From Omnitrophica bacterium RBG_13_46_9 (GTDB lineage Bacteria; Omnitrophota; Gorgyraeia; JABMRN01; RBG-13-46-9): 32,935 bases of DNA. Position 1 is the first letter of the stretch; each line of letters begins with the position of its first letter. The stretch is from positions 10,136-43,070 of the forward strand of contig MHFD01000076.1 of NCBI GenBank assembly GCA_001804045.1, in the 5' to 3' direction. Shown piece after piece: positions 9,913-27,459 of the stretch. A program made the position numbers and the translations under genes. The notes beneath the pieces were generated by a model. The model saw nothing but the letters and a program-made list of their open reading frames with translations. It ran no database searches and was not told the DNA's origin.

Positions 9913-11253
9913 ATGAATAACGGAAAGCTTTTGATTTTGAGTCTTGATGGCGCTTCCTGGGAAGGGTTAAAACCTTTTCAGGAACAAGGGAAATTGCCTA
10001 TAATAAGCTCATTGGTGAGTTCCGGCATGTCAGGGCCGCTTTCTTCTATGCTACCGACCTTCACATACCCCAATTGGGGGAGTTTCTGGACAGGACAAAA
10101 CCCCGGCCGACACGGGATATTCGCATTTAAAGAGCTGCGGTCGAGAGGAAGGTTGCACCAACTCGTGGGATGGAACTCACTTAAACTGCCGACCTGGCCC
10201 GAACTAGCGCATAGTCGAGGCTTCAAGATGGTTTCGGTATACGCCCCCCTTACCTACCCTCCGGCAAAACTTAACGGTCTTATCGTAGCGGACCAGCACA
10301 TGAGAAATTCCCGTAATTTCACGCATCCTGCGAGATTGGCCGGAGAACTCCGCTCCAGGTTTGGGAGGGTGTGCCCGCCTAAATCCGAGCAATTTTTCCC
10401 CCCTGGCGGTTTTCGGGACTCAGAATCCATGCGTGAATTTGTCCAAAAGCAAATTCAGAGCGTACTTCAGACCGGGGCAATAGCAGAGTATCTCCTTAAG
10501 AAACCTTCATGGGATATATGCATGGTTCATTTTTTCGCGACGGATCCCCTGCAGCACGCCCTCTGGCATCTTATGGACTCCGGACATCCAGCTTTTAGCG
10601 CAGAGGGACATCAGGAAATAGCGAAGTTCTTTGAGGCGCTGGATACGGCTATCGGGCGATTGATAGAGGAGGTAAAGCCGGGCATGGTCACGTTATTTTC
10701 TGTGCATGGGTTTACAGCTACCCGCGGTATCCTAAATCTATCCCGTTGTCTATTCGATTCTCTCGATAGAAAACCAAGAGGTGTTTTTCTTGATTGTAAA
10801 GCGATATATGTATACAATAAAATACGGGAAAACGGCGCGATTACAGATATTCTTATTCAAGCCCTGCAAAGCTTAAAGGACCCTTCTTCCGGGTCCCATG
10901 TAATACGCAGGGCCTGGCTGGCAAAGGAGTTGTACGGTTTTGTATCGTTCCCGGAGTGGGATGTAATAGTTTTGGAATTCAACGAAGGTTATACCGGCCG
11001 TGACGGTGATTTGAGGGCTCCTCTTTTCAAGATGTGCCGGCCAAATCGGGATTATTTGATCGGTACCCATACCCGGAAAGGTCTCTGGTTATTCTGCGGC
11101 AAGGGAGTACCTGCCCGCGGCGGTCTTCAAACCGGCATTTTAGACCTTCCTCCCACGATTCTAAACTATCTTGGGGTAACTGTCCCGGAATACATGGAAG
11201 GAAGCCCGCTTCCGCTCTTTACTTCTGTTATGTCAGGGCAAAAGACAGAATAA
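9913..11253 (+). CDS. alkaline-phosphatase-superfamily enzyme, nucleotide pyrophosphatase/phosphodiesterase (NPP) type
   Basis: Metal-ligand motif LILSLDGASWEGL. Thr-nucleophile motif PTFTYPNWGSFWTGQNPGRHGI. Later His motifs LFSVHGF and LIGTHTRKG. Confidence 0.75.
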   Translation: MNNGKLLILSLDGASWEGLKPFQEQGKLPIISSLVSSGMSGPLSSMLPTFTYPNWGSFWTGQNPGRHGIFAFKELRSRGRLHQLVGWNSLKLPTWPELAHSRGFKMVSVYAPLTYPPAKLNGLIVADQHMRNSRNFTHPARLAGELRSRFGRVCPPKSEQFFPPGGFRDSESMREFVQKQIQSVLQTGAIAEYLLKKPSWDICMVHFFATDPLQHALWHLMDSGHPAFSAEGHQEIAKFFEALDTAIGRLIEEVKPGMVTLFSVHGFTATRGILNLSRCLFDSLDRKPRGVFLDCKAIYVYNKIRENGAITDILIQALQSLKDPSSGSHVIRRAWLAKELYGFVSFPEWDVIVLEFNEGYTGRDGDLRAPLFKMCRPNRDYLIGTHTRKGLWLFCGKGVPARGGLQTGILDLPPTILNYLGVTVPEYMEGSPLPLFTSVMSGQKTE

Positions 11254-11255
11254 AA

Positions 11256-13463
11256 ATGAAAATCGGACAAAAAGGCGAAAATCTTATCTTCCTTATTTCC
11301 CAGCCGCGGTCGGGCTCAACCATGCTCCAGCGGATCCTGGGAAACCACCATGATATATATACAGTATCAGAGCCATGGCTTATGGTCCCTCCGCTTGTAG
11401 GGCTGACATGTAGATGGTCCAGCCCCGAAGGGAGAGAGGCCCGTTTTGCGCGTGAAAATGTGCGCCGTTTCCTTGAGACATTTCCAGGCGGGCGCGATGA
11501 CTACTTTGAAGGCTTGCGACGCATGTATGTATACCTGTATAACCGTGCCCTTGAAAACTCGGGTAAGCGTTATTTCCTCGATAAAACACCGAGATACGCT
11601 TATTTCATACCCGAACTTTACAGGGTCTTTCCGGAAGCGCGCTACATATTCCTGCTGCGTAATCCGCTGGCAGTTCTATGCTCAATCGTCACAAACTGGA
11701 CGGGTTACGATAAGCGGACGCTTTCGACGGATCACAATGACGACCTGGTAGACGTCCCGCGTCTATTGCTTGAGGGTATGAATATCCTGGATTCAAAAGC
11801 CATAAAAGTCCACTATGAGCGCCTGGTATCCCAGCCGGATGCAGAGATAAGGAGAATCTGTGAAAATATAGGCGTGGGGTTTTACCCGGAAATAATCGAA
11901 TATAACGCGTACGGCCTTCCTCAATGGTGCTTTGGAGACCAATTTGTGTATAAACATACAGCCCCTGATGCGCGGAAATCCGAAAGCTGGAAAGCAGCCG
12001 TCAGAGACCCGCGGATGTGGGGATTCGCCTACAGTTACCTTGGATCTCTGGGTAAAGACCTTGTCGAACACCTCGGGTACTCTTACCGGGAACTGCATGG
12101 AGTCCTTCAGAACTCCCGGCCACATTGGCTCGTGAGAGGGCTGGCAGCTTTAGTGCAATGGCCACGTATACGGTCTTTATACGGTGCCGTAAAATCCGTC
12201 ATTAGAAAGATATCGTCTTTCTTTACCTTATCCTTCATCGCAGTGTTCTTTATGGAACCGTTTTTTTGGTTTCTGGGCCTGCGAGGGAAAAATAGAGACG
12301 TCGGTGCGGGCAGCGCTAAGCGCATATTGGTGGTGCGTCTGGATTCGATCGGAGACTTGGTACTGACAACCCCTTTCCTGAGAGAACTCCGCCGGAATTC
12401 GCCCGGCTCATTTATCACTCTTATAGTCGACCCGCGCGCTTTAAACCTGGTTGATATCTGCCCTTATGTAGATGAGGTGCTGACATACGACTGGAGAGCG
12501 CGGGGCTCCTTTAAAAAATTGAAAAAGTGTTTCCGGGCCGTGAATTTCTCTGCCTTCAACCTCTGGGAAAAAAGATTTGACCTGGCAATAACGCCTCGTT
12601 GGGGAACCGATTATTATCACGGGTCTTTTCTGGCGTATATTAGCGGAGCCAGGGATAGAATCGGCTATTCCGAATATACGAGCGCCGATAAACGCAGGTT
12701 AAACAGGGGGTATGATAATTTTATTACACATTTAATTACGGATGGTCCGCATGAAGCCACTCGGTTTTGCGGCGTTTCCGATTGTGGGGTTCCGTTCCGC
12801 GAAGCCCCGCAATACCGCTGGCACACGGTCAAACATGAGGTAGTACGCAATTTAGACGTGATAAAATTTTTGGGGCGGGAGCCCTCCGGTGACGATCTGG
12901 AATTATGGATAGAAGATTCCGATAAGGTCTTTGCCGGAGAGATCCTAAGGAAATATGAAGTAAAGTCCGGCGAGGCATTGGTCTGTTTCGGCGTGGGGTC
13001 CCAGGAGCCAAAAAAGATATGGCCCATCGGGTATTTTGCCGATTTGGGTGCCTGGCTCATAAAAGAATACGGCGTGCGTATATTGCTTTTGGGGAACGAG
13101 CAGGAAAAGCCGTTGGGAGAAAGGATGGAAAAAGATTTAAAAGAAGGCCCTGTCATCAATATGATAGGAAATACCACCTTACGCCGGGCAGCCGCTTTGA
13201 TAAAACACTGTAAGGCTTACATAGGCAATGACAACGGCTTAATGCACATATCGGCCGCCATGGGAATACCTGTGGTAGAGGCGTCCTGCTGGCCAAAATC
13301 AGGCTCGCTATTTGGCGAGGATAGTCCCTGCCGTTTCGGGCCATGGAAAGTCAAGAATATTGTCGTCAGCTCTCAAAAAATAGCCGGTTCCAAAGACAAT
13401 GGCATATCGCGGGTGACGGTCGAAGAGATGAAAAAGGCGGTAAGGGAGATATTGTCGAGCTGA
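11256..13463 (+). CDS. fusion protein: N-terminal sulfotransferase domain, predicted TM segment, C-terminal GT9 (heptosyltransferase-family) domain
   Basis: The ATG at 11256 lies 2 nt after the upstream stop. The track start at 11034 would overlap the upstream gene by 220 nt. N-terminal PAPS loop FLISQPRSGSTMLQRILGN plus LLRNPLAVLCS. Hydrophobic FFTLSFIAVFFMEPFFWFLGL (about 12210-12282). GT9 signatures ILVVRLDSIGDLVLTTPFLRELR and YIGNDNGLMHISAAMGIPVV. Confidence 0.8.
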   Translation: MKIGQKGENLIFLISQPRSGSTMLQRILGNHHDIYTVSEPWLMVPPLVGLTCRWSSPEGREARFARENVRRFLETFPGGRDDYFEGLRRMYVYLYNRALENSGKRYFLDKTPRYAYFIPELYRVFPEARYIFLLRNPLAVLCSIVTNWTGYDKRTLSTDHNDDLVDVPRLLLEGMNILDSKAIKVHYERLVSQPDAEIRRICENIGVGFYPEIIEYNAYGLPQWCFGDQFVYKHTAPDARKSESWKAAVRDPRMWGFAYSYLGSLGKDLVEHLGYSYRELHGVLQNSRPHWLVRGLAALVQWPRIRSLYGAVKSVIRKISSFFTLSFIAVFFMEPFFWFLGLRGKNRDVGAGSAKRILVVRLDSIGDLVLTTPFLRELRRNSPGSFITLIVDPRALNLVDICPYVDEVLTYDWRARGSFKKLKKCFRAVNFSAFNLWEKRFDLAITPRWGTDYYHGSFLAYISGARDRIGYSEYTSADKRRLNRGYDNFITHLITDGPHEATRFCGVSDCGVPFREAPQYRWHTVKHEVVRNLDVIKFLGREPSGDDLELWIEDSDKVFAGEILRKYEVKSGEALVCFGVGSQEPKKIWPIGYFADLGAWLIKEYGVRILLLGNEQEKPLGERMEKDLKEGPVINMIGNTTLRRAAALIKHCKAYIGNDNGLMHISAAMGIPVVEASCWPKSGSLFGEDSPCRFGPWKVKNIVVSSQKIAGSKDNGISRVTVEEMKKAVREILSS

Positions 13464-13798: not shown

Positions 13799-14215
13799 TT
13801 ATTTATTACGCAATTTCTCAATTGCTTTTCCTGTCGGAAGAAACAATAGTAGCCGCTTGCCCTCTTTCTCTATTTCAAAAAACCCCTTTATGGCAAGAGC
13901 TATTAAATCCTTACGAGCAGTATCATATGCAATACCGTGAGTATTTTTATGGGCTTCTATTGTATAAATATTATCTGGATGTTGAATAGAGTGATAGATT
14001 AAACTCTTTTGTCGTAAATTTAATCCACGAAACTTATCTAATAGTTCGTTTGCTTTTGATATTTCCCTCTGTTTGTTTTTTAAATATTTTCTCAATTCAT
14101 TCAAAGCAAACCTAATAGCAAGTAAATTGTGAAGCTCCACCGCCTTACAGCGGTGGCTTCTCTTTTTACAGGGTTCCGCTCTATCGGTGGAGCGGAACCC
14201 TGAACCGAAAGCCAT
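13799..14215 (-). pseudogene. Fic-family protein, C-terminal (winged-helix-like) fragment; its first 29 codons are encoded by the inserted element
   Basis: From NLLAIRFALNELRKYL onward it reads as the continuation of the upstream Fic ORF. It is in the same frame as 14249-15277, separated by 33 nt. The ATG and the MAFGSGFRSTDRAEPCKKRSHRCKAVELH leader lie inside the 126-nt element. Confidence 0.7.
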
Positions 14216-14254
14216 TCATCCGCGCCCTTACAGGCGTGGCTTTCTGGTTCATGG
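14129..14254 (-). mobile_element. 126-nt non-autonomous IS200/IS605-like element (PATE/MITE), copy 1, inserted in the Fic gene
   Basis: The reverse complement equals 26779-26904 at 118 of 126 positions; only the 8-nt central loop differs. The left flank on the element strand is TTAC. It has two direct subterminal hairpins with tgtaag loops plus a 13-bp perfect central palindrome. Confidence 0.8.
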
Positions 14255-15277
14255 GTAAACTAGAAAATAAGTCAGATCATTCTCATCATATTCAGTATAA
14301 AGATATCCTCTTACATATTGGCCAGGGGCTCTAAGAAAATGTTTTGAAATAGATAAATATTGAAAAAGTTCATAACCACGGCTCAGGAGATACCAATACA
14401 TCAATGCTCTGGCCGTTCTCCCATTCCCGTCGGTAAAGGGATGATCATACGCTAACCAAAAATGGATCATCGCTCCTTTAATGATGGAATGAATCCAATT
14501 TTCTTCGTCATCTTGATTTACAAACTCAATCAGTTTATTCATCCTGTCCTTTAGCGTATCTGCTTTAGGTGGGATATGCACAGTTTCATCTCTGTATGTA
14601 ACAACAATGTCATCCCTATCCCTAAATTTTCCTGCCTCACTAGGAGATTTCAATGTATCTTGCGTCAAAATAGTATGCAGTTCATAGAGTTTATCTGCAG
14701 AAAAGGGTGTTTTAATATTTTCTCGAATGAATTGCATTGCATGCCAATTGTTAAATATCATCTGCTCATTTTTGTCTTTGGGTTTACGCCCAGACCGTAA
14801 CATTTCTTTTGCAATCCTATACTCTGTTAAGGCCCCTTCTAGCTGGCTAGATGCAATGGCTTCGTCCATTAAAGAGCTTATAATATATTTCTCTTTGGCT
14901 GGAAGGCTAAATGGGTGGTCAGTAATTATTTGTCCCCCAGACCATTTATCAACATCACTTATGCCGCGATGCAGACAATCTGGTATCCAATACGTAAAGG
15001 GTCGATTGTTTTTGTCCATTATAGGTGTAGTTTTCCTGTTTGCGGAACGCCCTAATTTTAAATACGCCCATATTTCTTCAGCCTTGATTTCTATATTATT
15101 CGCTGGCATGCGATGAATAACATCCGACCAATAAAAGTATCGATCGCTGGCTTTGCGTATCAGATTCTGCAGTTCTGGTATTTGACCAATTTTTAGAATC
15201 TTTAAAAAACTTTCCGGGTTACCAAATATACTATTCAGATTTGGAGGTGATTCAACGAGCAAGAAAAAACCTCTCAC
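14249..15277 (-). pseudogene. Fic-family protein (AMPylase-type), N-terminal plus catalytic part, terminated by a stop inside the inserted element
   Basis: Fic motif HPFTDGNGRTAR (14408-14443). Inhibitory-helix-type motif SSQLEG (14834-14851). The ORF ends ...DLTYFLVY-P-stop, with the P codon and TGA contributed by the element. The GTG start at 15277 lies inside a terminator hairpin, so the true start is uncertain. Confidence 0.8.
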
Positions 15278-15298: not shown

Positions 15299-15310
15299 AC
15301 AACGAGTTAG

Positions 15311-15385
15311 CAGCCCCACGGGGATTCGAACCCCGGTCTTCAGAATGAAAATCTGATGTCCTAGGCCGGGCTAGACGATGGGGCC
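15311..15385 (-). tRNA. tRNA-Glu (anticodon UUC), no encoded CCA
   Basis: The minus strand reads GGCCCCA TC GTCT AGCCCGGCCTA GGAC A TCAGA TTTTCAT TCTGA AGAC CGGGG TTCGAAT CCCCG TGGGGCT G. This gives a full cloverleaf with anticodon loop TT-TTC-AT. The D-arm and T-arm closely resemble E. coli tRNA-Glu. Positions 1-72 form a G-U pair. Confidence 0.88.
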
Positions 15386-22183: not shown

Positions 22184-22348
22184 CCCCTTATTCTACTTCG
22201 ACTAATAGATATTAATCTTAAAGACAGTAATAATAGTAATAGGGTTAAAAAATGTTGATATTTACATAATATCCATAAAACAAAAGAGTTAGAATAAAAA
22301 ACTTATACACACCTTATCAACATATCCACAGCCACCATTACCACACCA
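22184..22348. promoter_or_regulatory. candidate oriC module (AT-rich unwinding region plus DnaA-box-like 9-mers) in the dnaA-dnaN spacer
   Basis: Very AT-rich stretch at 22200-22300. It is followed by TTATACACA (22303-22311), TTATCAACA (22314-22322) and ATATCCACA (22322-22330). Each is one mismatch from TTATCCACA. Confidence 0.5.
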
Positions 22349-23740
22349 TTAAGAACCACTCTTTATGCTTAAAACCAGTTTATCTATAACCCAACCCATC
22401 TTTTCATCCTTTTTTAAGTCATTTTCAATCTTCTCACAGGCATGAAGGACTGTTGTATGGTCCCTCCCGCCGAAAAAACGCCCTATCTCAGGCAGGGAAA
22501 GATCTGTAAGGTCCCTACTTAAGTACATGGCTATCTGGCGCGGATAAGCCACCGCTTTTGTCCTTTTTTTTATCTTCATGTCTTGCAGATTGATATTAAA
22601 ATATTGAGCCACTTTTTTTTGTATCAGATCGACCCCGACTCTTTTCTCGCCCTCAATAATCATCTCTTTTAATACCTCTTTGGCGAGGTCTATAGTTATG
22701 TCTTTGTTCATCAATTTTGCGTAAGCGACTACGCGTATAAGCGCACCCTCCAGCTCCCTTATATTTGTTTTAACTTTTTCGGCCAACAAGAAAAAGAAAT
22801 CATCGGGCAGGTGTATGGTTTCCGCCTCACATTTCTTTCTTAAAATCGCTATTCTTGTTTCAAAATCGGGCGGCTGGATATCCGTAATCAAACCCCACTC
22901 AAACCTGGATATCAACCTCTCCTCTAAAGTAGGGATTTCTTTGGGCGAACGGTCGCTTGACAGCACTATCTGTTTATGGGCGTCGTACAAAGAATTGAAT
23001 GTATGGAAAAACTCTTCCTGCGTGGCTTCCTTGCCCGCTATGAAATGGATATCATCTATTAAGATCATATCCACAGTGCGGTACTTCTGTCGGAATTTTT
23101 GCGTAGCCCTGTTCTGAATCGCGGATATCAATTGATTTGTGAACTCTTCGCTGGATATATATAATATCTTTGCTCTAGTGTTATTTTTTGCCAGCTCATT
23201 TCCCATCGCGTGCATGAGGTGGGTCTTGCCTAATCCGACACCCCCATATATGAAAAGCGGGTTATACGCTTTGGCGGGGGATTCCGCGATAGCCAATGAG
23301 GCGGCGTGGGCAAATCTGTTGCTCGGGCCCACCACGAAACTGTCAAATGTATATTTTGGATTTAGACCCGTATCTTTTAAAAAAACATCCTCGGCTTGCT
23401 TGGGAAAGACAGACCTGAACCACCCCTTCTTCTGTGTTGGTTTTTTTTCGGATTCCTTTTGGGGCGCCACTTCTTTGACGGCCGAAATAGAGAATTCTAT
23501 ATTTATCTTCTTGTTGGCGATTTCACTCAGGTAGGAACCTAATAGGTTTGAGTATCTTTCTCTGACCCACTCTTTAAAAAATTCATTGGGAACTCCAAGC
23601 GTAAGCGTATCATCCGAAAGAGATACGGGTATTATCGGCGCAAACCATGCATTAAATACCTGCTCACTGACCTCGCTTTTTATGCAGTTCAGGAGGTTGT
23701 CCCACAATTCTTTATGAACATTTTCCACAGGGTTATCCAC
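22349..23740 (-). CDS. dnaA: chromosomal replication initiator DnaA
   Basis: 463 aa. AAA+ Walker A GGVGLGKTHLMHA, Walker B ILIDDIHF, sensor and box VII regions. C-terminal DNA-binding helix GGRDHTTVLHACEKI. The start is GTG at 23740 (alternative GTG at 23728). Confidence 0.96.
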   Translation of the reverse strand: MDNPVENVHKELWDNLLNCIKSEVSEQVFNAWFAPIIPVSLSDDTLTLGVPNEFFKEWVRERYSNLLGSYLSEIANKKINIEFSISAVKEVAPQKESEKKPTQKKGWFRSVFPKQAEDVFLKDTGLNPKYTFDSFVVGPSNRFAHAASLAIAESPAKAYNPLFIYGGVGLGKTHLMHAMGNELAKNNTRAKILYISSEEFTNQLISAIQNRATQKFRQKYRTVDMILIDDIHFIAGKEATQEEFFHTFNSLYDAHKQIVLSSDRSPKEIPTLEERLISRFEWGLITDIQPPDFETRIAILRKKCEAETIHLPDDFFFLLAEKVKTNIRELEGALIRVVAYAKLMNKDITIDLAKEVLKEMIIEGEKRVGVDLIQKKVAQYFNINLQDMKIKKRTKAVAYPRQIAMYLSRDLTDLSLPEIGRFFGGRDHTTVLHACEKIENDLKKDEKMGWVIDKLVLSIKSGS

Positions 23741-23796
23741 AGCTATTCGACCAGTAATTCAATATAAATATACAGTTTATTCACAGGTTATCCACA
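23721..23796 (+). promoter_or_regulatory. cluster of four co-oriented DnaA boxes at the dnaA 5' end / promoter
   Basis: TTTTCCACA 23721-23729, TTATCCACA 23733-23741 (perfect), TTATTCACA 23777-23785, TTATCCACA 23788-23796 (perfect). Confidence 0.65.
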
Positions 23797-26778: not shown

Positions 26779-26904
26779 CCATGAACCAGAAAGCCACGCC
26801 TGTAAGGGCGCGGATGAATGGCTTTCGGTTCAGGGTTCCGCTCTATCGGTGGAGCGGAACCCTGTAAAAAGAGAAGCCACCGCTGTAAGGCGGTGGAGCT
26901 TCAC
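26779..26904 (+). mobile_element. 126-nt non-autonomous IS200/IS605-like element (PATE/MITE), copy 2, between yidC and the Jag_N gene
   Basis: The left flank is TTAC (26775-26778). AAAG (26790-26793) precedes hairpin CCACGCC-tgtaag-GGCGCGG (26794-26813). The central palindrome is at 26831-26864. GAAG (26873-26876) precedes hairpin CCACCGC-tgtaag-GCGGTGG (26877-26896). The element ends in TCAC (26901-26904). Confidence 0.8.
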
Positions 26905-26932: not shown

Positions 26933-27133
26933 ATGAAAGAAAGATTTATTGAAGTAGAAGCGAAGACGACCCAAGAAGCAATAAAAATAGCGCTTGAAAA
27001 ACTAAATGTGAAAAAAGAAGATGTCGAGATAAAGATATTGCGCGAAGAACATAAAGGTCTTTTTGGAATGGAAGGCGCAGAGCTAGCCAAGATAAAAGCT
27101 ATAGTTAAAAAAAGATCACAAAAAAACCTATAA
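26933..27133 (+). CDS. Jag_N-domain-only protein (truncated Jag/KhpB homologue)
   Basis: MKERFIEVEAKTTQEAIKIALEKLNVKKEDVEIKILREEHKGLFGMEGAELAKIKA matches the Jag N-terminal domain. The protein stops after 66 aa, with no KH or R3H domain. The track start at 26849 is a GTG inside the element palindrome and is rejected. Confidence 0.7.
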   Translation: MKERFIEVEAKTTQEAIKIALEKLNVKKEDVEIKILREEHKGLFGMEGAELAKIKAIVKKRSQKNL

Positions 27134-27338
27134 TAATTTCACAAATCCACATATATTTTTCTAGCATATGCTATTGACTTTCAGGATCATGTCAGGTAAA
27201 CTTGCTCTAATAAGGAATAGAAACAAAATATGTTTTTTAATACTTAATCAACATATTGAATTTGTTTCTAATACCTTGGATATTTGAAAAGTAGGGTTAA
27301 TTAAATAAACAAAATAGTCAAACAGTGTTTTATATACG

Positions 27339-27354
27339 GTTTCCACGTGGAAAC
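27339..27354. promoter_or_regulatory. parS-like 16-bp perfect palindrome upstream of parAB
   Basis: GTTTCCACGTGGAAAC, compared with canonical parS TGTTTCACGTGAAACA. Each half-site is GTTTCCAC instead of GTTTCAC. It lies about 105 nt upstream of the parA start. Confidence 0.45.
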
Positions 27355-27459
27355 TTTTATAAATTTACAACTTCTGCATATGGCATTGGCGCTTCTCAAT
27401 AATCCGGTATTTGCAGCGTAAGCAGCTAAAACAGATAACCTAAATATAGCGGGGAACAA

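What the first reader, a model, noticed from the sequence alone, without database searches (positions are those of the whole stretch)
13799..15277. Fic gene split in frame by the 126-nt element, which supplies both the stop and a restart ATG
Seen: the upstream ORF ends ...ENDLTYFLVY then P-stop, with cca-tga being the first 6 nt of the element. The element is 126 nt (42 codons) and is read in the same frame as both ORFs. That frame carries three stops (tga, taa, tga) followed directly by ATG (atg gct ttc...). This ATG opens the 138-aa ORF, whose residues from N30 onward (NLLAIRFALNELRKYLKNKQ...) continue the Fic protein. Deleting 14129-14254 joins ...ttt cta gtt tac | aat tta ctt gct..., giving one uninterrupted ORF of about 450 aa. 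The upstream piece retains the catalytic HPFTDGNGRTAR motif and an SSQLEG inhibitory-type motif. The downstream piece is the winged-helix-like tail. Inference: the gene is either a recent pseudogene or a two-polypeptide Fic system created by the element. The copy is pristine, which argues the event is recent.
Basis: partly seen in the sequence, partly recalled or inferred. Interest (0 to 1): 0.7.

Follow-up and report, generated by a model that had tools for sequence, protein, structure and literature searches.

The report
Tiny jumping element splits Fic gene
A 126-base mobile DNA element with no genes, apparently of the IS200/IS605 single-strand type, has recently inserted into an otherwise intact Fic enzyme gene of an Omnitrophica bacterium; this is an ordinary and probably reversible gene disruption, not a designed two-part protein.

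Summary
A minus-strand Fic gene is cut by a 126-nt element (14129-14254). In the Fic frame the element reads TGA, TAA, TGA and then ATG. Deleting it gives a protein that aligns without gaps to intact 445-aa homologues (up to 84% identity).

The element is a multicopy mobile repeat. A second copy lies at 26779-26904, and I found 41 independent insertion sites in public data, 33 of them with an identical sequence. Every defining DNA feature of IS200/IS605 "peel-and-paste" elements that I tested is met:
- Similar hairpins sit near both ends, in direct orientation.
- It inserts just 3' of TTTAC (40 of 41 sites), which here is Fic's own Val-Tyr codons.
- There is no target duplication.
- The guide and cleavage tetranucleotides (TTAC/AAAG, TCAC/GAAG) follow the IS608 pairing rule, with compensatory changes in two sister lineages.

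No transposase partner was found in the DNA I could reach.

Most likely consequence: Fic is truncated to 337 aa, which keeps the catalytic core and inhibitory helix but loses the winged-helix tail. The restart ATG is a by-product of a conserved element motif. The insertion is recent and should be reversible by scarless excision. This is a new member of a known kind, of modest interest.

The parts
14249..15262 (-). Upstream Fic fragment. It runs from the likely TTG start at 15262 to the element-supplied stop TGA at 14249-14251 and encodes 337 aa. It contains the N-terminal domain, the inhibitory motif SSQLEG and the catalytic motif HPFTDGNGRTAR.
   Evidence: ORF list; Pfam Fic E = 2.7e-20; the alignment to homologues fixes the start at MLVESPP. 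The public record calls only a 286-aa version, OGW74812.1 'hypothetical protein'.
14255..14259 (-). Target pentanucleotide TTTAC (cleavage site CL = TTAC). It belongs to Fic, as part of codons GTT TAC (Val-Tyr), and is not part of the element.
   Evidence: The left flank is T/T/T/A/C at 40-41 of 41 independent sites, while the right flank varies. Intact homologues read GTTTAT|AATTTAC at this position.
14129..14254 (-). The 126-nt non-autonomous element (PATE/MITE-type), with its top strand on the window minus strand.
   Evidence: Second copy in the window. 41 unique insertion sites in public contigs, 33 with identical sequence. Fold energy -67.2 kcal/mol, z = -7.6. No Rfam family matched.
14220..14239 (-). 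Left-end hairpin (CCACGCC-TGTAAG-GGCGCGG). The guide tetranucleotide AAAG lies immediately 5' of it, at 14243-14240.
   Evidence: pairs kept through compensatory changes; AAAG lies 4 nt 5' of the hairpin foot, and the foot is 15 nt from the cleavage point.
14169..14202 (-). Central perfect 13-bp hairpin (CAGGGTTCCGCTC / GAGCGGAACCCTG) with an 8-nt loop.
   Evidence: The loop is exactly inverted in the second copy.
14137..14156 (-). Right-end hairpin (CCACCGC-TGTAAG-GCGGTGG). The guide GAAG lies at 14160-14157 and the cleavage tetranucleotide TCAC at 14132-14129, which are the last four bases of the element.
   Evidence: The same hairpin ends related elements in MAGs labelled Omnitrophota, Ratteibacteria, Auribacterota, Planctomycetia and Pseudomonadota, and forms the left-end hairpin of the Patescibacteria variant.
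13799..14215 (-). Downstream 138-aa ORF. The first 29 residues (MAFGSGFRSTDRAEPCKKRSHRCKAVELH) are encoded by the element. From N30, 109 residues of native Fic C-terminus follow (13802-14128; most of the long connector helix plus the winged helix). The stop is at 13799-13801.
   Evidence: Annotated publicly as OGW74811.1 'hypothetical protein'. The structure model shows helix 336-373 followed by an H-H-H-strand-strand winged helix. SoFic aligns across the junction.
26779..26904 (+). Second copy of the element, lying between yidC and jag. It is also preceded by TTTAC, and its central loop is inverted relative to all other copies.
23721..23796 (.). DnaA-box cluster marking the replication origin region. 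It lies between the two element copies and sets their orientation relative to the replication forks.
   Evidence: Four boxes, two of them perfect TTATCCACA. dnaA-dnaN-gyrB-gyrA run leftward and rpmH-rnpA-yidD-yidC-jag-parAB run rightward. The cumulative GC-skew minimum is at 22-24 kb.

Best explanation
A 126-nt protein-less derivative of an IS200/IS605-family insertion sequence (a palindrome-associated transposable element, PATE) has inserted into a normal 445-codon Fic gene of the SoFic type.

Insertion (inferred). A Y1 (HUH) TnpA transposase encoded elsewhere supplied the activity. It inserted the circular single-stranded top strand immediately 3' of TTTAC, the Val-Tyr codons GTT TAC. It found this site by pairing the guide AAAG, which lies 5' of the left hairpin, with TTAC. 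No target bases were duplicated.

Consequence for Fic (shown from sequence). The element is 42 codons long, so the frame is preserved. But in this phase it carries three stops, so translation ends at ...FLVY-Pro-stop. The 337-aa product keeps the N-terminal domain, the inhibitory helix and the catalytic core. It loses all but the first five or six residues of the long connector helix, and it loses the winged-helix domain.

The restart ATG (inferred). It lies in the GGATGAATGG box just 3' of the left hairpin. That box is conserved across type-A variants of the element. I take the ATG to be a by-product of the box, not an adaptation for Fic. At most it allows weak translation of a 138-aa tail fragment.

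Reversibility (inferred from the family). TnpA excision is scarless, so the intact gene could be regenerated exactly.
For: One gene, split:
- The repaired protein aligns without gaps to intact homologues across the junction.
- The DNA of intact relatives reads GTTTAT|AATTTAC at that point.

A mobile multicopy element:
- There are two copies in the window and at least two more in the same MAG.
- There are 41 unique sites in public contigs, 33 with identical sequence.

IS200/IS605 anatomy:
- Similar hairpins sit near both ends in direct orientation, and all three hairpins are kept through compensatory changes.
- The left flank is an invariant TTTAC, the right flank varies, and there is no duplication.
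- TTTAC is shown to be host sequence by the Fic codons.
- The cleavage/guide pairs are TTAC/AAAG at the left end, identical to IS608, and TCAC/GAAG at the right end. Sister lineages use CCAC/GGTG, CTAA/AGTT and TCAT/GATA.
- All of these keep the pairings C1:G2, C2:G1 and C4:G4. The first two are documented for IS608 in PMC5934647 and PMC3201880. C4:G4 I take from IS608's own end sequences and from memory of Barabas 2008.
- The spacing is similarly asymmetric: 15 nt and 8 nt here, against 19 and 10 in IS608.

Orientation:
- The top strand runs the same way as the flanking genes at 35 of 41 sites (p = 5e-6).
- In the window the two copies flank oriC in opposite orientations. Each therefore has its top strand on the lagging-strand template, as reported for this family (PMC5027513).

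Genic insertion is the exception: most sites are intergenic.

Precedent: PATEs and scarless excision that restores an interrupted lacZ are described in PMC10055086.

Structure: the junction lies in helix 336-373, upstream of a winged helix, and the best fold matches are SoFic-type Fic proteins.
Against: - No TnpA or TnpB gene, and no full-length parent with these ends, was found in about 590 kb of fetched loci or in the window. That search used crude sequence motifs. The rest of the source MAG could not be retrieved.
- Two single-copy divergent variants break one pair of the guide rule: the L072 right end and the L054 left flank.
- The guide AAAG can also pair with a downstream CTTT in an extended stem that itself shows compensatory changes. 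Some of the complementarity could therefore serve folding rather than target choice.
- The orientation bias could instead reflect selection against the terminator-like hairpins that the bottom strand presents to transcription.
- Nothing here measures expression, so loss of Fic function is inferred, not shown.
Confidence: 0.8

Rival explanations
1. The same insertion event, but mobilised by different machinery. Candidates are a domesticated REP-associated tyrosine transposase (the REP/REPIN-RAYT system), an IS91-type rolling-circle transposase, or another enzyme that inserts next to a fixed short motif. On this view the element is not a PATE of a conventional IS200/IS605 element.
For: - No cognate TnpA was found.
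- The element is short, high in copy number, mostly intergenic and built from hairpins, which also describes REP-type repeats.
- IS91-type elements also insert next to a fixed tetranucleotide without duplication (my own knowledge).
Against: - The two end hairpins are in direct orientation with distinct left and right contexts. They are not an inverted REP pair.
- The left-end code TTAC/AAAG is identical to IS608, and the guide-cleavage covariation holds at both ends in three lineages.
- The cleavage-to-hairpin distances mirror the IS608 asymmetry.
- RAYTs are themselves TnpA(IS200)-like, so the chemistry would be the same in any case.
Confidence: 0.1
2. The split is functional. The truncated catalytic Fic (337 aa) and a separately translated 138-aa winged-helix piece, started at the element's ATG, together form a two-polypeptide Fic system. 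Alternatively, the element acts as a reversible on/off switch that is maintained because it benefits the host.
For: - The frame is preserved and neither fragment has any other lesion.
- The ATG follows the last stop directly and sits 9 nt downstream of an AAGGG in the hairpin loop.
- The catalytic core and the inhibitory helix are intact.
- Scarless excision is a known property of the family.
Against: - The stops and the ATG are fixed element sequence, present at every copy and read identically at an unrelated gene.
- The ATG lies in a box conserved across type-A element variants whatever the insertion context.
- All 14 homologues I aligned are uninterrupted across the junction.
- The cut falls inside a long helix, not at a domain linker.
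- The copy is pristine, so there has been too little time for selection to show.
- The AAGGG is half buried in a stable hairpin.
Confidence: 0.07
3. The interruption is removed or skipped after transcription, by a small self-splicing intron or by translational bypassing, so that an intact Fic is still made.
For: The element is exactly 42 codons long, is very strongly folded, and has a stop two codons after the junction. This superficially resembles the phage T4 gene 60 bypass (my own knowledge).
Against: - No Rfam intron or ribozyme family matches, even at permissive thresholds.
- 126 nt is far below the size of group I or group II introns (my own knowledge).
- No matching take-off and landing codons restore the Fic frame. 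A TAC landing in AATTTAC, or a CCA landing inside the right hairpin, soon runs into a stop (read from the sequence).
- The same element lies mostly outside genes.
Confidence: 0.02
4. Assembly artefact. The repeat was placed in Fic by misassembly of metagenomic reads.
For: The source is a metagenome-assembled genome, and the element is a multicopy repeat shorter than a typical read pair insert.
Against: - Both flanks belong to the same gene, in the same frame, with not a base missing or duplicated.
- The insertion lies exactly 3' of the family's TTTAC target.
- A chimeric join would not reproduce a perfect transposition footprint.
Confidence: 0.01

Closest known systems
PATEs (palindrome-associated transposable elements): protein-less derivatives of IS200/IS605 elements, first named in Haloquadratum walsbyi (PMC3119063) and also seen in Geobacillus stearothermophilus (PMC10055086)
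   Same: - Short, with no coding capacity.
- Keeps only the left and right end hairpins of a single-strand transposon.
- Multicopy and near-identical, and presumably mobilised in trans.
- Inserts next to a fixed short motif without duplication.
   Different: - The host phyla differ. The MAGs are labelled Omnitrophota, with relatives in Ratteibacteria, Patescibacteria, Auribacterota and Planctomycetia.
- The sequence is unrelated to anything in Rfam or in the searched literature.
- The autonomous partner has not been identified.
- Whether it carries a TnpB guide RNA, as many PATEs do, is unknown.
IS608 of Helicobacter pylori (IS200/IS605 family, TnpA Y1 transposase)
   Same: - The target and left cleavage site are TTAC, and the left guide is AAAG, both identical.
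- The right end obeys the same pairing logic (TCAC/GAAG here, TCAA/GAAT in IS608).
- The cleavage sites lie asymmetrically: outside the element on the left and inside it on the right.
- There is no duplication, and the orientation matches the lagging-strand template.
   Different: - IS608 is about 1.8 kb (my own knowledge) and encodes tnpA and tnpB, whereas this element is 126 nt with no gene.
- The spacings are 15 and 8 nt instead of 19 and 10.
- The preferred target here is the pentanucleotide TTTAC.
- The hairpin sequences are unrelated.
SoFic (Shewanella oneidensis SO_4266, PDB 3EQX/3ZEC) and related Fic proteins with a winged-helix tail: the kind of gene that was hit
   Same: - The catalytic motif HPFTDGNGRTAR.
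- An N-terminal inhibitory SxxxEG helix.
- A Fic core followed by a long helix and a C-terminal winged helix.
   Different: - Only about 19% sequence identity.
- An extra N-terminal domain of about 100 residues.
- NCBIfam SoFic scores 46 bits against a cut-off of 550, so this is not an equivalog.
Rickettsia palindromic elements (RPEs): short palindromic repeats inserted in frame in protein genes and translated (my own knowledge)
   Same: - A hairpin-rich repeat of roughly 100-150 nt.
- Its length is a multiple of three.
- It is found inside a coding sequence.
   Different: - RPEs are read through as extra peptide segments.
- This element has three stops in the phase used in Fic.
- Its open phase is not found inserted in any real protein among 5.8 billion sequences.

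Membership tests
IS200/IS605-family non-autonomous element (PATE) | Hairpins near both ends in the same (direct) orientation, rather than terminal inverted repeats | tested here: met
   The left hairpin is CCACGCC-TGTAAG-GGCGCGG and the right is CCACCGC-TGTAAG-GCGGTGG, both on the same strand. The pairs are kept through compensatory changes across seven variants.
IS200/IS605-family non-autonomous element (PATE) | Insertion immediately 3' of a specific tetra- or pentanucleotide that stays outside the element | tested here: met
   TTTAC precedes the element at 40 of 41 unique sites. At the Fic site these bases are the gene's own Val-Tyr codons, and homologues have GTTTAT there.
IS200/IS605-family non-autonomous element (PATE) | No target-site duplication, and an exact (scarless) footprint | tested here: met
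   The right flanks are unrelated to the left flanks. Removing exactly 126 nt restores a gapless Fic. Actual excision was not observed.
IS200/IS605-family non-autonomous element (PATE) | Cleavage tetranucleotides complementary to guide tetranucleotides lying 5' of each hairpin foot (the IS608 rule) | tested here: met
   The pairs are TTAC/AAAG and TCAC/GAAG. Sister lineages use CCAC/GGTG, CTAA/AGTT and TCAT/GATA, and all keep C1:G2, C2:G1 and C4:G4. The first two pairings are from PMC5934647 and PMC3201880; C4:G4 is read from IS608's own ends and my memory of Barabas 2008. Two single-copy variants each break one pair.
IS200/IS605-family non-autonomous element (PATE) | Active (top) strand on the lagging-strand template | tested here: inconclusive
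   Both window copies fit, given that oriC lies at about 23.7 kb. The top strand runs the same way as the flanking genes at 35 of 41 sites. But two copies are few, and gene orientation is only a proxy for fork direction. Selection against the bottom-strand terminators could give the same bias.
IS200/IS605-family non-autonomous element (PATE) | A Y1 (HUH) TnpA in the same genome, on an element with matching ends | tested here: inconclusive
   None was found in the window or in about 590 kb of loci using motif scans, and no solo end next to a gene was found. The rest of the MAG was not retrievable.
IS200/IS605-family non-autonomous element (PATE) | No protein-coding capacity | tested here: met
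   The element is 126 nt. Only two short spurious ORFs are called on other copies.
TnpB guide-RNA (omega RNA) carrying element | The right-end region is transcribed as a scaffold that guides TnpB to the empty site next to the target motif | not testable with these tools
   There are no TnpB and no expression data. Rfam gives no match.
REP/REPIN-RAYT system | Paired REP palindromes in inverted orientation that form one long hairpin and are associated with a RAYT gene | tested here: not met
   The end hairpins are direct, with different left and right contexts. No RAYT-like gene was found in the fetched DNA.
Fic/Fido AMPylase-type enzymes (the interrupted gene) | Fic domain with the catalytic motif HxFx(D/E)GNGRxxR | tested here: met
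   HPFTDGNGRTAR is present. Pfam PF02661 scores 73 bits against a cut-off of 24.
Fic/Fido AMPylase-type enzymes (the interrupted gene) | Intramolecular inhibitory helix with (S/T)xxxE(G/N), N-terminal to the core (class II arrangement) | tested here: met
   SSQLEG at residues 143-148 is invariant in 15 sequences and lies in a helix of the model. Inhibition itself was not tested.
Fic/Fido AMPylase-type enzymes (the interrupted gene) | SoFic-like C-terminal winged-helix domain | tested here: met
   The profile aligns to SoFic residues 150-351 across the junction. The model shows an H-H-H-strand-strand motif at 379-439. Foldseek finds SoFic with a TM-score of 0.70, and MarR-type winged helices for the tail.

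The most novel reading that the evidence does not exclude
The insertion is a maintained, reversible genetic switch or a functional split. Under this reading, TnpA-catalysed scarless excision would flip a potentially toxic Fic AMPylase between off and on. Alternatively, the element's own AAGGG-ATG would drive translation of the winged-helix tail, so that catalytic and DNA-binding parts act as two polypeptides. A related possibility is that the element's centre and right end encode a TnpB guide RNA. That guide would read into Fic sequence and target the restored allele for cleavage.
Probability: 0.06. Interest if true: 0.55.

Novelty: new member of a known kind. Interest (0 to 1): 0.3.

Why it matters
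For annotation: two 'hypothetical proteins' in the public record (OGW74812.1 and OGW74811.1) are halves of one Fic gene. The interrupting repeat is an unannotated mobile element that recurs throughout this genome and a related one.

For transposon biology: this is a compact 126-nt substrate that uses the same TTAC/AAAG target code as H. pylori IS608. Relatives in MAGs assigned to several little-studied phyla carry re-coded guide and cleavage pairs. That amounts to a natural series of target reprogramming, which could be used to find the cognate TnpA (and possibly TnpB) enzymes.

For the Fic gene itself the finding is ordinary: a recent insertional disruption, probably neutral or deleterious, of an accessory gene.

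Tried and rejected
- **Rfam.** Searches at gathering and at permissive thresholds found only the tRNA-Glu and chance-level microRNA or small-RNA hits.
- **Viral contigs.** A scan with TTACCCATGAACCAGAA gave seven hits. All were chance matches with no hairpin after them.
- **Autonomous parent.** L003 is a solo right end between housekeeping genes. L008 is a 164-nt protein-less variant. L016/L043 is a left-end remnant truncated by a glycosyltransferase gene. A blastn search for unpaired ends found nothing useful. Motif scans for Y1 TnpA and TnpB in all loci and the window found nothing.
- **Rest of the source contig.** Exact-protein look-ups failed for gyrA, two window-edge ORFs, P0121 and P0124.
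- **Synteny.** I looked for an orthologous empty site. The intact homologues sit in unrelated contexts. L077 shares only the tRNA-Glu region.
- **Translational bypass and intron readings.** I rejected both on sequence grounds (see rivals).
- **RPE-like translated insertion.** Rejected, because the open reading phase of the element occurs in no real protein.
- **Literature.** A search for the hairpin sequences found nothing relevant.
Full report
**1. The observation.** The region holds two minus-strand ORFs, 14249..15277 and 13799..14215. Between the Fic-coding parts lies a 126-nt segment (14129..14254), which reads CCATGAACC...GAGCTTCAC on the minus strand.
- In the Fic frame it reads P-stop(TGA)-TRKPRL-stop(TAA)-GRG-stop(TGA)-MAFGSG..., so the ATG at 14215 directly follows the third stop.
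- Removing exactly these 126 nt gives one open frame.
- That repaired protein found 5,817 proteins at E <= 1e-10. The best are 445-aa Fic proteins at 76-84% identity with 98-99% coverage.
- In an alignment with 14 of them there is no gap at the junction (DLTYFLVY|NLL(A/S)IRFALNELRKY).
- The alignment also shows that the real start is the TTG at 15262 (MLVESPP). This makes the repaired gene 445 codons, as in most of the aligned homologues.

**2. What the interrupted gene is.**
- Pfam finds a Fic domain. The motifs HPFTDGNGRTAR and SSQLEG are present and invariant in the family.
- A profile of the family matches SoFic (PDB 3EQX) from the Fic core, across the junction and into its C-terminal domain.
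- An AlphaFold model (mean pLDDT 81.6) places the junction (Y341|N342 in GTG numbering) five or six residues into a long helix, 336-373. That helix leads to an H-H-H-strand-strand winged helix at 379-439.
- Foldseek's best full-length matches are SoFic and a Mycobacterium marinum Fic protein. The tail alone also matches MarR-type winged helices.
- So the upstream product keeps the inhibitory helix and catalytic core. It loses almost all of the connector helix and the winged helix.

**3. What the 126-nt segment is.**
- It is a repeat. A second copy lies at 26779..26904 on the plus strand, between yidC and jag.
- A scan of species-representative genomes with the right-hairpin 20-mer returned 35 loci. 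The MAGs are labelled Omnitrophota, Ratteibacteria, Patescibacteria, Auribacterota, Planctomycetia and others.
- A metagenome scan with the left end returned 41 loci, mostly from one project, Ga0154667.
- After removing duplicates there are 41 independent full-length sites of the window's type. At 33 of them the element is identical, base for base, to the Fic copy.
- Two more copies exist on other contigs of the same MAG. The MAG is Omnitrophica bacterium RBG_13_46_9.
- The element folds into three hairpins (-67 kcal/mol, z = -7.6), and these are kept through compensatory substitutions across variants.
- It matches no Rfam family.

**4. How it moves: anatomy compared with IS200/IS605.**
- *Target.* The five bases left of the element are TTTAC at 40 of 41 sites, while the right flank is variable. 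There is thus a fixed target on one side only and no duplication.
- *Target is host sequence.* At Fic the TTTAC is the gene's own GTT TAC, and two intact relatives have GTTTAT|AATTTAC there. TTTAC is therefore target, not element.
- *Ends.* The two end hairpins are similar and in direct orientation.
- *IS608 reference.* In IS608 the cleavage tetranucleotides (TTAC on the left, outside the element; TCAA on the right, inside it) are read by base pairing with guide tetranucleotides (AAAG, GAAT) that lie 5' of each hairpin foot. Documented pairs include T-4:A+17 and T-3:A+16 (PMC3201880, PMC5934647).
- *Same code here.* The four bases 5' of the left hairpin are AAAG and the target is TTAC, which is the same code as IS608. 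The four bases 5' of the right hairpin are GAAG and the element ends in TCAC, so the T-to-C change in the cleavage site is matched by an A-to-G change in the guide.
- *Sister lineages re-code both partners together.* The Patescibacteria variant has right end CCAC/GGTG. A 113-nt relative in Planctomycetia and Auribacterota MAGs has left end CTAA/AGTT and right end TCAT/GATA. In those two lineages the exact element boundaries are inferred from where copies stop being conserved.
- *Spacing.* The cleavage-to-hairpin distances are 15 and 8 nt, which mirrors the 19/10 asymmetry of IS608.
- *Exceptions.* Two divergent single-copy variants each break one pair.

**5. Orientation.**
- The window contains the origin region. 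dnaA, dnaN, gyrB and gyrA run leftward, and rpmH, rnpA, yidD, yidC, jag, parA and parB run rightward. DnaA boxes lie at 23721-23796, and the cumulative GC-skew minimum is at 22-24 kb.
- The Fic copy is left of the origin with its top strand on the minus strand. The other copy is right of the origin with its top strand on the plus strand.
- In both cases the top strand lies on the lagging-strand template, as reported for this family (PMC5027513).
- Across all 41 sites the top strand runs the same way as the flanking genes in 35 cases (p = 5e-6).
- This fits replication-coupled insertion. But it could also reflect selection, because the bottom strand presents two terminator-like hairpins with T-rich tails.

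**6. What is missing.** I found no TnpA, no TnpB and no full-length parent in the window or in about 590 kb of fetched DNA, and I could not retrieve the rest of the MAG. The element therefore has the anatomy expected of an IS200/IS605 substrate, and it matches the definition of a PATE (PMC3119063; PMC10055086). Full membership still needs the enzyme.

**7. Consequences for Fic.**
- Only a few of the 41 sites are clearly inside a long reading frame. Most lie within a few codons of gene ends or in spacers.
- The stops and the ATG are properties of the element. At an asparagine-synthase-like gene in L077, the same element in the same phase reads ...QFYP*TRKPRL*GRG*MAFGSG.
- The ATG lies in the box GGATGAATGG just 3' of the left hairpin. 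This box is conserved across type-A variants whatever the context.
- An AAGGG lies 9 nt upstream of the ATG but is partly within the hairpin. Some translation of the 138-aa ORF is possible but unproven.
- The most likely state is a recently inactivated or crippled Fic gene. Because excision in this family is scarless, it could revert exactly.
- The public record annotates the halves as two hypothetical proteins.

**8. Rivals.**
- A different mobilising enzyme (RAYT-like or IS91-like) remains possible until the transposase is found.
- A functional two-polypeptide or switch reading is not excluded, but no evidence supports it.
- RNA-level removal or ribosomal bypass is rejected on sequence grounds.
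- Misassembly is very unlikely, given the perfect transposition footprint.

**9. Verdict.** The element is a previously undescribed member of a known class of mobile element. Interest is modest at 0.3. Its main value is correcting the annotation and providing a natural series of re-coded guide and cleavage pairs in phyla that are poorly studied.

Noticed in passing
window 26844-26851 (copy 2), compared with 14182-14189 (Fic copy): The 8-nt loop of the central hairpin is the exact reverse complement in copy 2 (TATCGGTG) of the loop in the Fic copy and all other type-A copies with this hairpin (CACCGATA), while the 13-bp stem is unchanged. This looks like a hairpin 'flip' caused by template switching or recombination within the palindrome.
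   Followed up: partly
window 14137-14156 and 14220-14239, plus strand: On the element's bottom strand, both end hairpins are followed by T-rich tails and score as intrinsic-terminator-like sites. This could explain why the element is almost always oriented with its top strand in the sense of neighbouring genes.
   Followed up: partly
L077 463-588 (minus strand) and ORF 583-2160: The same element, in the same codon phase (TTT TAC|CCA TGA), ends a 525-aa asparagine-synthase-like ORF. Without the element the frame would run 41 codons further. This may be a second gene clipped by the element. Its right flank also starts AATTT, as at Fic.
   Followed up: partly
L086 (904-nt JGI contig), protein P0123: P0123 is a Fic relative that sits in the same 90%-identity cluster as the upstream fragment. 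It diverges abruptly after ...SISKHFL into unrelated AT-rich sequence, about 26 codons before the junction studied here. This may be another disrupted copy of this Fic clade, or a chimeric contig.
   Followed up: partly
window 15254-15277 and 15310-15385: The likely Fic start (TTG at 15262, with a GAGAGG Shine-Dalgarno sequence) overlaps the terminator hairpin of tRNA-Glu. In a related contig (L077, 94% identical over the tRNA region) the DNA beyond the terminator is not Fic. This suggests Fic is an accessory gene next to the tRNA.
   Followed up: partly
window 22303-22330 and 23721-23796: There are two clusters of DnaA boxes, one between dnaA and dnaN and one just upstream of dnaA, with 20 near-matches in the window against 7.7 expected. 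They mark the chromosomal origin.
   Followed up: partly
window 26933-27133 and 27134-27459: The jag gene encodes only the 66-aa Jag_N domain, with no KH or R3H part. It is followed by about 330 nt with no convincing ORF before parA.
   Followed up: no
alignment A3, columns 5-15 paired with 72-81 (element positions about 5-15 and 44-53): An extended stem encloses the left hairpin and pairs the guide AAAG with a downstream CTTT, with compensatory changes in two variants. It may sequester the guide or belong to an RNA form of the element.
   Followed up: no
L001, L005, L011, L020, L025, L026, L035 (the MAG labelled Planctomycetia, CAZOMD01): Many of the 113-nt sister elements sit inside arrays of short GTC(T/A)AA-like repeats (for example AAGTCAAAAAGTCTAAAGGTCTAA), which repeatedly offer their TCTAA target.
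   Followed up: no
window 11034-13463: An 809-aa ORF combines a sulfotransferase domain with a family-9 glycosyltransferase (heptosyltransferase) domain. This is an unusual fusion, immediately downstream of the Fic locus on the opposite strand.
   Followed up: no
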